Source: Escherichia coli (GTDB lineage Bacteria > Pseudomonadota > Gammaproteobacteria > Enterobacterales > Enterobacteriaceae). From it: a stretch of 2,326 nt of DNA. The first letter of the stretch is position 1. Every line of letters begins with the position of its first letter. Below, one piece after another: positions 123 to 2,326 of the stretch. The notes beneath the pieces were generated by a model that was not told the origin of the DNA, made no database searches, and saw only the letters and a list, made by a program, of their open reading frames with translations. Position numbers and translations under genes: made by a program. The DNA lies in NCBI RefSeq assembly GCF_003334355.1, contig NZ_QOWP01000076.1. The stretch is one strand, 5' to 3'.

Positions 123-2326
123 GGTTAAGCGACTAAGCGTACACGGTGGATGCCCTGGCAGTCAGAGGCGATGAAGGACGTGCTAATCTGCGATAAGCGT
201 CGGTAAGGTGATATGAACCGTTATAACCGGCGATTTCCGAATGGGGAAACCCAGTGTGTTTCGACACACTATCATTAACTGAATCCATAGGTTAATGAGG
301 CGAACCGGGGGAACTGAAACATCTAAGTACCCCGAGGAAAAGAAATCAACCGAGATTCCCCCAGTAGCGGCGAGCGAACGGGGAGCAGCCCAGAGCCTGA
401 ATCAGTGTGTGTGTTAGTGGAAGCGTCTGGAAAGGCGCGCGATACAGGGTGACAGCCCCGTACACAAAAATGCACATGCTGTGAGCTCGATGAGTAGGGC
501 GGGACACGTGGTATCCTGTCTGAATATGGGGGGACCATCCTCCAAGGCTAAATACTCCTGACTGACCGATAGTGAACCAGTACCGTGAGGGAAAGGCGAA
601 AAGAACCCCGGCGAGGGGAGTGAAAAAGAACCTGAAACCGTGTACGTACAAGCAGTGGGAGCACGCTTAGGCGTGTGACTGCGTACCTTTTGTATAATGG
701 GTCAGCGACTTATATTCTGTAGCAAGGTTAACCGAATAGGGGAGCCGAAGGGAAACCGAGTCTTAACTGGGCGTTAAGTTGCAGGGTATAGACCCGAAAC
801 CCGGTGATCTAGCCATGGGCAGGTTGAAGGTTGGGTAACACTAACTGGAGGACCGAACCGACTAATGTTGAAAAATTAGCGGATGACTTGTGGCTGGGGG
901 TGAAAGGCCAATCAAACCGGGAGATAGCTGGTTCTCCCCGAAAGCTATTTAGGTAGCGCCTCGTGAATTCATCTCCGGGGGTAGAGCACTGTTTCGGCAA
1001 GGGGGTCATCCCGACTTACCAACCCGATGCAAACTGCGAATACCGGAGAATGTTATCACGGGAGACACACGGCGGGTGCTAACGTCCGTCGTGAAGAGGG
1101 AAACAACCCAGACCGCCAGCTAAGGTCCCAAAGTCATGGTTAAGTGGGAAACGATGTGGGAAGGCCCAGACAGCCAGGATGTTGGCTTAGAAGCAGCCAT
1201 CATTTAAAGAAAGCGTAATAGCTCACTGGTCGAGTCGGCCTGCGCGGAAGATGTAACGGGGCTAAACCATGCACCGAAGCTGCGGCAGCGACGCTTATGC
1301 GTTGTTGGGTAGGGGAGCGTTCTGTAAGCCTGTGAAGGTGTGCTGTGAGGCATGCTGGAGGTATCAGAAGTGCGAATGCTGACATAAGTAACGATAAAGC
1401 GGGTGAAAAGCCCGCTCGCCGGAAGACCAAGGGTTCCTGTCCAACGTTAATCGGGGCAGGGTGAGTCGACCCCTAAGGCGAGGCCGAAAGGCGTAGTCGA
1501 TGGGAAACAGGTTAATATTCCTGTACTTGGTGTTACTGCGAAGGGGGGACGGAGAAGGCTATGTTGGCCGGGCGACGGTTGTCCCGGTTTAAGCGTGTAG
1601 GCTGGTTTTCCAGGCAAATCCGGAAAATCAAGGCTGAGGCGTGATGACGAAGCACTACGGTGCTGAAGCAACAAATGCCCTGCTTCCAGGAAAAGCCTCT
1701 AAGCATCAGGTAACATCAAATCGTACCCCAAACCGACACAGGTGGTCAGGTAGAGAATACCAAGGCGCTTGAGAGAACTCGGGTGAAGGAACTAGGCAAA
1801 ATGGTGCCGTAACTTCGGGAGAAGGCACGCTGATATGTAGGTGAAGTCCCTCGCGGATGGAGCTGAAATCAGTCGAAGATACCAGCTGGCTGCAACTGTT
1901 TATTAAAAACACAGCACTGTGCAAACACGAAAGTGGACGTATACGGTGTGACGCCTGCCCGGTGCCGGAAGGTTAATTGATGGGGTTAGCGGTAACGCGA
2001 AGCTCTTGATCGAAGCCCCGGTAAACGGCGGCCGTAACTATAACGGTCCTAAGGTAGCGAAATTCCTTGTCGGGTAAGTTCCGACCTGCACGAATGGCGT
2101 AATGATGGCCAGGCTGTCTCCACCCGAGACTCAGTGAAATTGAACTCGCTGTGAAGATGCAGTGTACCCGCGGCAAGACGGAAAGACCCCGTGAACCTTT
2201 ACTATAGCTTGACACTGAACATTGAGCCTTGATGTGTAGGATAGGTGGGAGGCTTAGAAGTGTGGACGCCAGTCTGCATGGAGCCGACCTTGAAATACCA
2301 CCCTTTAATGTTTGATGTTCTAACGT
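123..2326 (+). rRNA. rrl: 23S ribosomal RNA (large-subunit rRNA), 5' ~2,200 nt covering domains I-IV and the start of domain V; 3'-truncated by the window edge
   Basis: Begins with the canonical enterobacterial 23S 5' end GGTTAAGCGACTAAGCGTACACGGTGGATGCCCTGGCAGTCAGAGGCGATGAAGGACG. Conserved landmarks fall at the expected E. coli positions with a constant offset of +122: G745/U746/U747/G748 at 867-870, the GTPase-associated centre 1051-1108 at 1173-1230 with A1067 at 1189 and A1095 at 1217, A1618 at 1740, G1835 at 1957. Downstream the offset is +124: helix 69 GGCCGTAACTATAACGGTC at 2030-2048, U1939 at 2063, C1962 at 2086, A2030 at 2154, G2057/A2058/A2059 at 2181-2183, G2069 at 2193. The window ends at about 23S position 2202, inside the L1-stalk region. 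Confidence 0.97.

What the first reader, a model, noticed from the sequence alone, without database searches (positions are those of the whole stretch)
655..1310. No intervening sequences at helix 25 or helix 45, so the 23S is predicted unfragmented
Many Enterobacterales and other Proteobacteria (Salmonella, Yersinia, Proteus and others) carry ~90-150 nt intervening sequences in helix 25 (about 23S 533-560, window ~655-682) and helix 45 (about 23S 1164-1185, window ~1286-1307) that RNase III excises. Here both regions have the short E. coli-type hairpins and the landmark offset stays at +122 across them. This supports an Escherichia/Shigella-like origin and argues against a hidden insertion.
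Basis: partly seen in the sequence, partly recalled or inferred. Interest (0 to 1): 0.15.

Follow-up and report, generated by a model that had tools for sequence, protein, structure and literature searches.

The report
Ordinary E. coli 23S, no intervening sequences
This stretch is a normal Escherichia coli 23S ribosomal RNA gene with the usual short hairpins at the two sites where some relatives carry excisable inserts, so this rRNA copy is expected to stay in one piece; this is textbook E. coli and not a discovery.

Summary
The window holds the last 122 nt of the 16S-23S spacer plus 23S rRNA nt 1 to about 2202, cut at the 3' end.

It differs at one base (2325/2326) from an rrnE-context copy in E. 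coli PSS-12. Against MG1655 rrlB it has no indel from window 1 to 1991 and is base-for-base identical over 123-1332.

Helix 25 (655-682, 28 nt) and helix 45 (1286-1307, 22 nt) are identical to K-12 and form hairpins of 10 and 9 base pairs.

Positive controls carry 86-164 nt at exactly these sites, against 22 and 28 nt here. They are Salmonella Infantis, Trabulsiella, Brenneria, Prodigiosinella, Sodalis and others. Their inserts fold into 39-57 bp extended helices.

None of 5,426 complete E. coli genomes has DNA resembling the three inserts tested.

Three caveats apply:
- Lack of inserts is not diagnostic of Escherichia. Insert-free Salmonella copies exist, and one E. coli helix-45 allele equals the Salmonella one. 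Near-identity to E. coli is what assigns the origin.
- Only one rrl copy and about 76% of the gene are visible.
- The +122 offset becomes +124 after window 1993, because of a common 2-nt allele.

Already known; low interest.

The parts
1..122 (+). 3' end of the 16S-23S internal transcribed spacer (downstream of tRNA-Glu in the matching genome). It contains the Rfam StyR-44 match at 7-115.
   Evidence: Rfam RF01830, 124.9 bits against a gathering score of 54. In E. coli PSS-12 the matching locus runs purH, 16S, tRNA-Glu, 23S, 5S, yjaB, metA, which is the rrnE context.
123..2326 (+). 23S rRNA gene, nt 1 to about 2202 in K-12 numbering, cut off by the end of the window.
   Evidence: Rfam RF02541, 2063.9 bits, model positions 1-2228 of 2925, truncated at the 3' end. 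It is annotated as 23S rRNA in all listed E. coli hits.
655..682 (+). Helix 25 hairpin, 28 nt, K-12 allele, no intervening sequence.
   Evidence: Identical to rrlB 533-560. It folds as ((((..((((((....))))))..)))) at -14.6 kcal/mol. Brenneria and Prodigiosinella carry 164 and 131 nt between the same anchors.
1286..1307 (+). Helix 45 hairpin, 22 nt, K-12 allele, no intervening sequence.
   Evidence: Identical to rrlB 1164-1185. It folds as a 9-bp stem with a 4-nt loop at -12.4 kcal/mol. Salmonella Infantis carries 103 nt between the same anchors, and other taxa carry 86-126 nt.
1992..1993 (+). The only length difference from MG1655 rrlB in the window: 2 extra nt (GCGGTAACGC against GCGCAAGC). 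It adds one G-C pair and changes a GCAA tetraloop to GUAA.
   Evidence: Alignments and folds. This allele is present in 2,069 of 5,426 E. coli genomes. I place it at the apex of helix 68 from memory only; the helix number was not tested.
1651..1651 (+). Rare A allele (23S 1529; G in K-12 and in PSS-12). It turns a G.U closing pair of a UACG hairpin into A-U.
   Evidence: It is the single difference from the best genome hit. The 41-mer carrying it occurs in only 40 of 5,426 genomes.

Best explanation
The window is one copy of an Escherichia coli rrl gene (23S rRNA nt 1 to about 2202) with its upstream spacer. At helices 25 and 45 it carries the short K-12-type apical hairpins and no intervening sequence (IVS). 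In IVS-bearing relatives the hairpin cap is replaced by an extended, nearly continuous helix of roughly 40-57 bp. RNase III cuts that helix out without religation, leaving 23S rRNA in pieces. Here the two helices offer only 10 and 9 base pairs, which is too short to be a double-strand substrate for RNase III. The transcript of this copy is therefore expected to mature as a single continuous 23S rRNA over the part seen. What is shown: the identity and length of both helices, the absence of any indel in 655-1310, and the contrast with IVS-bearing controls. What is inferred from established RNase III and IVS biology: that no cleavage occurs.
For: The LSU rRNA match starts at window 123. All 5,426 complete E. 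coli genomes match, and the best is 2325/2326. There is no gap relative to MG1655 rrlB from window 1 to 1991, with identity over 123-1332. Anchor-to-anchor lengths are helix 25 = 28 nt and helix 45 = 22 nt, the same as K-12. Controls measured the same way give 103 nt for Salmonella Infantis helix 45, 105 for Trabulsiella, 122 (helix 45) and 164 (helix 25) for Brenneria, 103 and 131 for Prodigiosinella, 86-118 for Sodalis, and 124 for a Pasteurellaceae genome. The IVS-bearing helices fold with 39-57 pairs at -47 to -79 kcal/mol, against 9-10 pairs at -12 to -15 kcal/mol here. A query joining the Salmonella helix-45 IVS and two helix-25 IVSs finds nothing in 28 Gb of E. coli genomes. With 121-nt queries centred on each helix, every E. 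coli genome has a one-piece best match; the listed ones span 120-123 nt. In the literature, IVSs are excised by RNase III, fragment the 23S, and are reported in S. enterica and others 'but not in E. coli' (PMC8708148). Salmonella LT2 has 83- and 99-nt IVSs and 23S genes of 2994-3093 nt (PMC2672173).
Against: Only one of about seven rrl copies and about 76% of the gene are visible. The population searches list only the best match per record, so a rare E. coli rrl copy with an unrelated insert would not have been noticed. No RNA-level data exist for the source strain.
Confidence: 0.97

Rival explanations
1. The window comes from an IVS-free rrl copy of Salmonella or another non-Escherichia enterobacterium, so other copies in the organism could carry intervening sequences (IVSs) and its 23S rRNA pool would be partly fragmented.
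For: IVS-free Salmonella copies exist (L020, L021, L022). IVS distribution among operons of one strain is known to be patchy (PMC4990558; PMC2672173).
Against: Identity to Salmonella rrl is only 97.4-98.0%, with several small indels. Identity to E. coli is 2325/2326 including the spacer, and all 5,426 E. coli genomes match. The helix-25 sequence differs from every Salmonella copy sampled. Shigella cannot be separated from E. coli with these collections.
Confidence: 0.01
2. The source E. coli strain still has fragmented 23S rRNA, because an insert lies in another rrl copy or in the unseen 3' ~700 nt of this copy.
For: The window ends at about 23S nt 2202. The searches report only the best match per record, so not every one of the ~38,000 E. 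coli rrl copies was inspected.
Against: No E. coli genome has DNA similar to the enterobacterial IVSs tested. The nearest full-length copy (PSS-12, 2906 nt) has no indel relative to K-12 rrlB other than the 2-nt allele. A review states that IVSs are not found in E. coli (PMC8708148).
Confidence: 0.02
3. The window is a consensus or chimera of several rrl copies produced by assembly, so its exact allele combination does not exist in any single operon.
For: No genome among 5,426 matches all 2326 bases. The sequence combines a rare allele (A1651, 40 genomes) with common ones.
Against: A single-base difference from a real genomic copy is ordinary strain variation. In some of the 40 genomes carrying A1651 the allele sits in all seven copies. 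This reading would not change the helix 25/45 result, because every sampled E. coli allele is short.
Confidence: 0.05

Closest known systems
E. coli K-12 MG1655 rrlB (23S rRNA, NC_000913.3 4168641-4171544)
   Same: Helices 25 and 45 are identical, and the whole of 23S nt 1-1210 is identical. There is no indel up to nt 1869.
   Different: Within the 23S part there are four isolated substitutions (window 1333, 1651, 1845, 2256) plus the 2-nt insertion with adjacent changes at 1992-1996. The spacer has two further substitutions, at window 53 and 100.
E. coli PSS-12 rrnE-context 23S (NZ_AP027697.1)
   Same: 2325 of 2326 bases are identical, including the spacer and the +2-nt allele.
   Different: It has G instead of A at window 1651.
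Salmonella enterica rrl genes with RNase III-excised intervening sequences (LT2; serovar Infantis copy L019)
   Same: It is the same gene, about 97.5% identical, and the flanks of both helices are conserved.
   Different: Salmonella Infantis has 103 nt at helix 45, a net +81 nt, which folds into a helix of about 40 bp at -51 kcal/mol. The window has 22 nt, 9 bp and -12.4 kcal/mol. LT2 is reported to carry 83- and 99-nt inserts (PMC2672173).
IVS-bearing rrl of other Enterobacterales (Brenneria alni, Prodigiosinella confusarubida, Trabulsiella odontotermitis, Sodalis spp.)
   Same: The insertion sites map exactly inside window 655-682 and 1286-1307. The helix-45 inserts of Salmonella, Trabulsiella, Brenneria and two of the three Sodalis genomes share the basal stem ACGTATCACTTAAA...TTTA(A/G)GGATACGT.
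   Different: They are 64-136 nt longer than the window at those sites.

Membership tests
Bacterial large-subunit rRNA (Rfam RF02541) | The covariance-model score is above the gathering threshold. | tested here: met
   2063.9 bits against a threshold of 50, window 123-2326, model positions 1-2228, cut at the 3' end.
E. coli rrl, K-12-type helix 25/45 alleles | The helix 25 and helix 45 sequences are identical to MG1655 rrlB 533-560 and 1164-1185. | tested here: met
   The exact alleles occur in 2,747 and 3,057 of 5,426 E. coli genomes.
IVS-containing (fragmented) 23S rRNA genes | An insertion of tens to hundreds of nt in helix 25 or helix 45 relative to E. coli. | tested here: not met
   The insertion is 0 nt at both sites. 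Controls carry +64 to +136 nt.
IVS-containing (fragmented) 23S rRNA genes | An extended double-stranded stem, about two helical turns or more, that can serve as an RNase III substrate. | tested here: not met
   The window has 10 and 9 predicted base pairs. IVS-bearing controls have 39-57. The RNase III length requirement itself comes from established knowledge and was not tested here.
IVS-containing (fragmented) 23S rRNA genes | Sequence similarity to known enterobacterial IVS families. | tested here: not met
   A 362-nt query joining the Salmonella helix-45 IVS and the Prodigiosinella and Brenneria helix-25 IVSs finds no match in any E. coli genome, which includes near-identical copies of this window.
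IVS-containing (fragmented) 23S rRNA genes | Mature 23S rRNA is observed as sub-fragments. | not testable with these tools
   This needs RNA from the source strain.

The most novel reading that the evidence does not exclude
The source E. coli strain carries an intervening sequence elsewhere, either in another rrl operon or in the unseen 3' ~700 nt of this gene. That would be a first for E. coli. The evidence here excludes only this copy up to about nt 2202 and homologues of three enterobacterial IVSs across the E. coli collection.
Probability: 0.01. Interest if true: 0.45.

Novelty: already known. Interest (0 to 1): 0.05.

Why it matters
It matters little. The result is a correct negative that fits textbook knowledge: E. 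coli 23S rRNA is continuous. Its practical value is as a sanity check: no hidden insertion sits in domain II of this rrl copy, and RNA integrity metrics for the source strain should show a normal 23S peak. The one mildly useful by-product is the allele census. The helix 25 and helix 45 caps, the same sites that accept intervening sequences in other taxa, are polymorphic short hairpins within E. coli (27-30 nt and 21-22 nt).

Tried and rejected
1. The genome-contig scan for helix-45 inserts with a 71-131 nt gap returned 16 loci. It did not return Salmonella, Yersinia, Proteus or Providencia, although a Salmonella Infantis copy matches the same pattern exactly. The scan is therefore not an exhaustive census. 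The cause is unknown: it may lie in the representative genomes or in the stored data. I obtained Salmonella copies from chromosomal fragments filed as plasmids in PLSDB instead.

I got round this by placing an 'H' between them.

3. Mattatall & Sanderson 1996, Pronk & Sanderson 2001 and Gregory et al. 1996 are not held in the library. Anything I recall from them is not used as evidence.

4. A per-copy census of all ~38,000 E. coli rrl copies for any insertion was not possible, because the similarity tool lists only the best place per record. The substitutes were an IVS-homology search and best-place spans.

5. No Salmonella copy with a helix-25 IVS was retrieved. Helix-25 positive controls come from Brenneria, Prodigiosinella and a Rhodocyclales genome.

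6. Early Python calls failed only because several loci are stored in one file.

7. I considered whether the Rfam-alignment deletion of model positions 272-305 meant anything. It matches K-12 exactly, so it is just the E. coli form.

Full report
**What the window is.**
Rfam places bacterial large-subunit rRNA at window 123-2326 (2063.9 bits, model positions 1-2228 of 2925, cut at the 3' end). It also finds the spacer element StyR-44 at window 7-115.

A megablast of the whole window hits all 5,426 complete E. coli genomes, with a median of seven places per genome. The best hit is E. coli PSS-12. The table shows it as 100.0%, but it is actually 2325/2326; the one difference is A against G at window 1651. 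In that genome the copy lies in the order purH, 16S, tRNA-Glu, 23S, 5S, yjaB, metA, which is the rrnE context.

**Check of the observation.**
I aligned the window to MG1655 rrlB together with its 122 upstream bases. There is no gap anywhere in window 1-1991, and the sequences are identical over window 123-1332. That range contains the entire finding (655-1310).

I then measured the sequence between conserved anchors on each side of each helix:
- Helix 25 is 28 nt (GTGGGAGCACGCTTAGGCGTGTGACTGC, window 655-682).
- Helix 45 is 22 nt (CAGCGACGCTTATGCGTTGTTG, window 1286-1307).
- Both are identical to rrlB 533-560 and 1164-1185.

Both fold as simple hairpins. Helix 25 has 4+6 bp around an internal loop (-14.6 kcal/mol). 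Helix 45 has 9 bp (-12.4 kcal/mol). Neither energy is reached by any of 200 shuffles.

**Positive controls.**
To show that the test can see intervening sequences (IVSs), I scanned one genome per species for helix-45 anchors separated by 71-131 nt. I also pulled Salmonella rrl copies from chromosomal fragments that PLSDB files as plasmids. The table gives anchor-to-anchor lengths.

| Source | Helix 25 (nt) | Helix 45 (nt) |
|---|---|---|
| This window and K-12 | 28 | 22 |
| Salmonella Infantis | 30 | 103 (net +81) |
| Trabulsiella odontotermitis | not recovered | 105 |
| Brenneria alni | 164 | 122 |
| Prodigiosinella confusarubida | 131 | 103 |
| Sodalis group (three genomes) | 27-31 | 86-118 |
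| A Pasteurellaceae genome | 24 | 124 |
| Idiomarina | 27 | 104 |
| Pseudoalteromonas | not recovered | 114 |
| A Rhodocyclales MAG | about +106 net | 108 |

All the insertions fall inside window 655-682 and 1285-1307.

The Salmonella value agrees with the published figures for LT2: 83- and 99-nt IVSs and 23S genes of 2994-3093 nt (PMC2672173).

The IVS-bearing helices fold into extended helices of 39-57 predicted pairs (-47 to -79 kcal/mol). The window has 9-10 pairs.

**Mechanism.**
By established knowledge, IVSs form an extra stem in the 23S precursor. RNase III excises that stem without religation and leaves fragmented but functional rRNA (PMC8708148; PMC4990558; PMC12013901). This copy has no extended stem at either site. 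Its transcript should therefore stay continuous over the part seen. That step is an inference; no RNA data are available.

**How specific the result is to Escherichia.**
- Salmonella Newport and Senftenberg copies have no IVS at either helix (helix 25 30-32 nt, helix 45 21-22 nt).
- Klebsiella, Citrobacter and Enterobacter copies align across this stretch with at most a 4-nt length change.
- The origin is assigned by identity: 2325/2326 to E. coli against 97.4-98.0% to Salmonella.

The phrase 'E. coli-type hairpin' also needs qualifying.
- The exact helix-25 allele is in 2,747 of 5,426 E. coli genomes (16,443 places). The exact helix-45 allele is in 3,057 genomes (15,410 places).
- Other sampled E. 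coli helix-25 alleles are 27 nt (GTGGGAGCCTCTTAATGGGGTGACTGC) and 30 nt (GTGGGAGCACAGAGCAATCTGTGTGACTGC, from an O157:H7 strain).
- Other sampled E. coli helix-45 alleles are 21 nt (CAGCGACACTATGTGTTGTTG and CAGCGACACTGTGTGTTGTTG).
- The second of these helix-45 alleles is identical to the IVS-free Salmonella helix 45. All these alleles still fold as hairpins.

**Whether any E. coli has an IVS.**
A 362-nt query joined the Salmonella helix-45 IVS and the Prodigiosinella and Brenneria helix-25 IVSs. It found nothing in 28 Gb of E. coli genomes in the sensitive blastn mode at E ≤ 0.01.

With 121-nt queries centred on each helix, every genome has a one-piece best match; the listed ones span 120-123 nt. 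A review states that IVSs are not found in E. coli (PMC8708148).

There is a limit to this evidence. The tool lists only the best place per record, so a rare copy carrying an unrelated insert could have been missed.

**Scope of 'unfragmented'.**
The window ends at about 23S nt 2202. In PSS-12 the full gene is 2906 nt. Its only indel relative to K-12 rrlB is the 2-nt allele. It is therefore very likely, though not shown, that the unseen 3' part is ordinary. The other rrl operons of the source strain are also unseen.

**Other differences from K-12.**
- Spacer substitutions lie at window 53 and 100.
- 23S substitutions lie at window 1333, 1651, 1845 and 2256.
- A 2-nt insertion with adjacent changes lies at window 1992-1996 (GCGGTAACGC against GCGCAAGC). 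It adds one G-C pair and keeps a GNRA tetraloop. This allele is common, in 2,069 of 5,426 genomes. It shifts the landmark offset to +124 downstream.
- A1651 is rare, in 40 of 5,426 genomes. It converts a G.U pair into A-U next to a UACG loop.

**Verdict.**
This is a known, ordinary feature of E. coli rrl genes.

Noticed in passing
window 655-682 and 1286-1307; loci L023-L026: The helix 25 and helix 45 caps are polymorphic within E. coli. The window's exact alleles occur in only 2,747 and 3,057 of 5,426 complete genomes. Other alleles are 27 or 30 nt (helix 25) and 21 nt (helix 45), and all still fold as hairpins. The EDL933 helix-45 allele is identical to that of IVS-free Salmonella copies.
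   Followed up: partly
window 1992-1993 (changes through 1996): A 2-nt insertion relative to K-12 rrlB (GCGGTAACGC against GCGCAAGC) adds one G-C pair and swaps a GCAA tetraloop for GUAA. It explains the 2906-nt 23S annotation and shifts the landmark offset to +124. The allele is in 2,069 of 5,426 E. coli genomes.
   Followed up: yes
window 1651: A instead of G (23S nt 1529) is the only difference from the best genome hit. The allele is rare (40 of 5,426 genomes, 178 places) and turns a G.U pair into A-U at the base of a UACG hairpin. It could help trace the source lineage.
   Followed up: partly
window 7-115: There is an Rfam StyR-44 match (124.9 bits) in the 16S-23S spacer just upstream of the 23S 5' end. 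I expect this in enterobacterial rrn operons. Its relation to the 23S processing stem was not examined.
   Followed up: no
L014, L015, L013, L016, L019 (helix-45 inserts); L015 helix-25 insert: The helix-45 IVSs of Salmonella, Trabulsiella, Brenneria and two Sodalis genomes share a basal stem, ACGTATCACTTAAA...TTTA(A/G)GGATACGT. The Salmonella, Trabulsiella and Prodigiosinella helix-45 IVSs also share an internal TGACGGAGCG(A/C)(A/C)GCGACGTCAA hairpin, and the same motif recurs in the Brenneria helix-25 IVS. This suggests a modular, shared origin.
   Followed up: no
L027 (NZ_AP027617.1, pLR-72_5, 1896 bp): A 1.9-kb record filed as an E. coli plasmid is a fragment of a non-E. coli 23S rRNA gene (82-90% identity, 19-nt helix 45). 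It is probably a contaminant or a misassembly.
   Followed up: partly
Genome-contig scan against L019: The species-representative scan did not return Salmonella enterica, even though a Salmonella Infantis copy matches the pattern exactly. The reason is unknown.
   Followed up: partly
PLSDB hits H16-H55: Many records filed as plasmids carry full rrn operons with chromosomal neighbours (mobB, murB), and some are 4.8-5.4 Mb long. They are chromosomal pieces or whole chromosomes mislabelled as plasmids.
   Followed up: no
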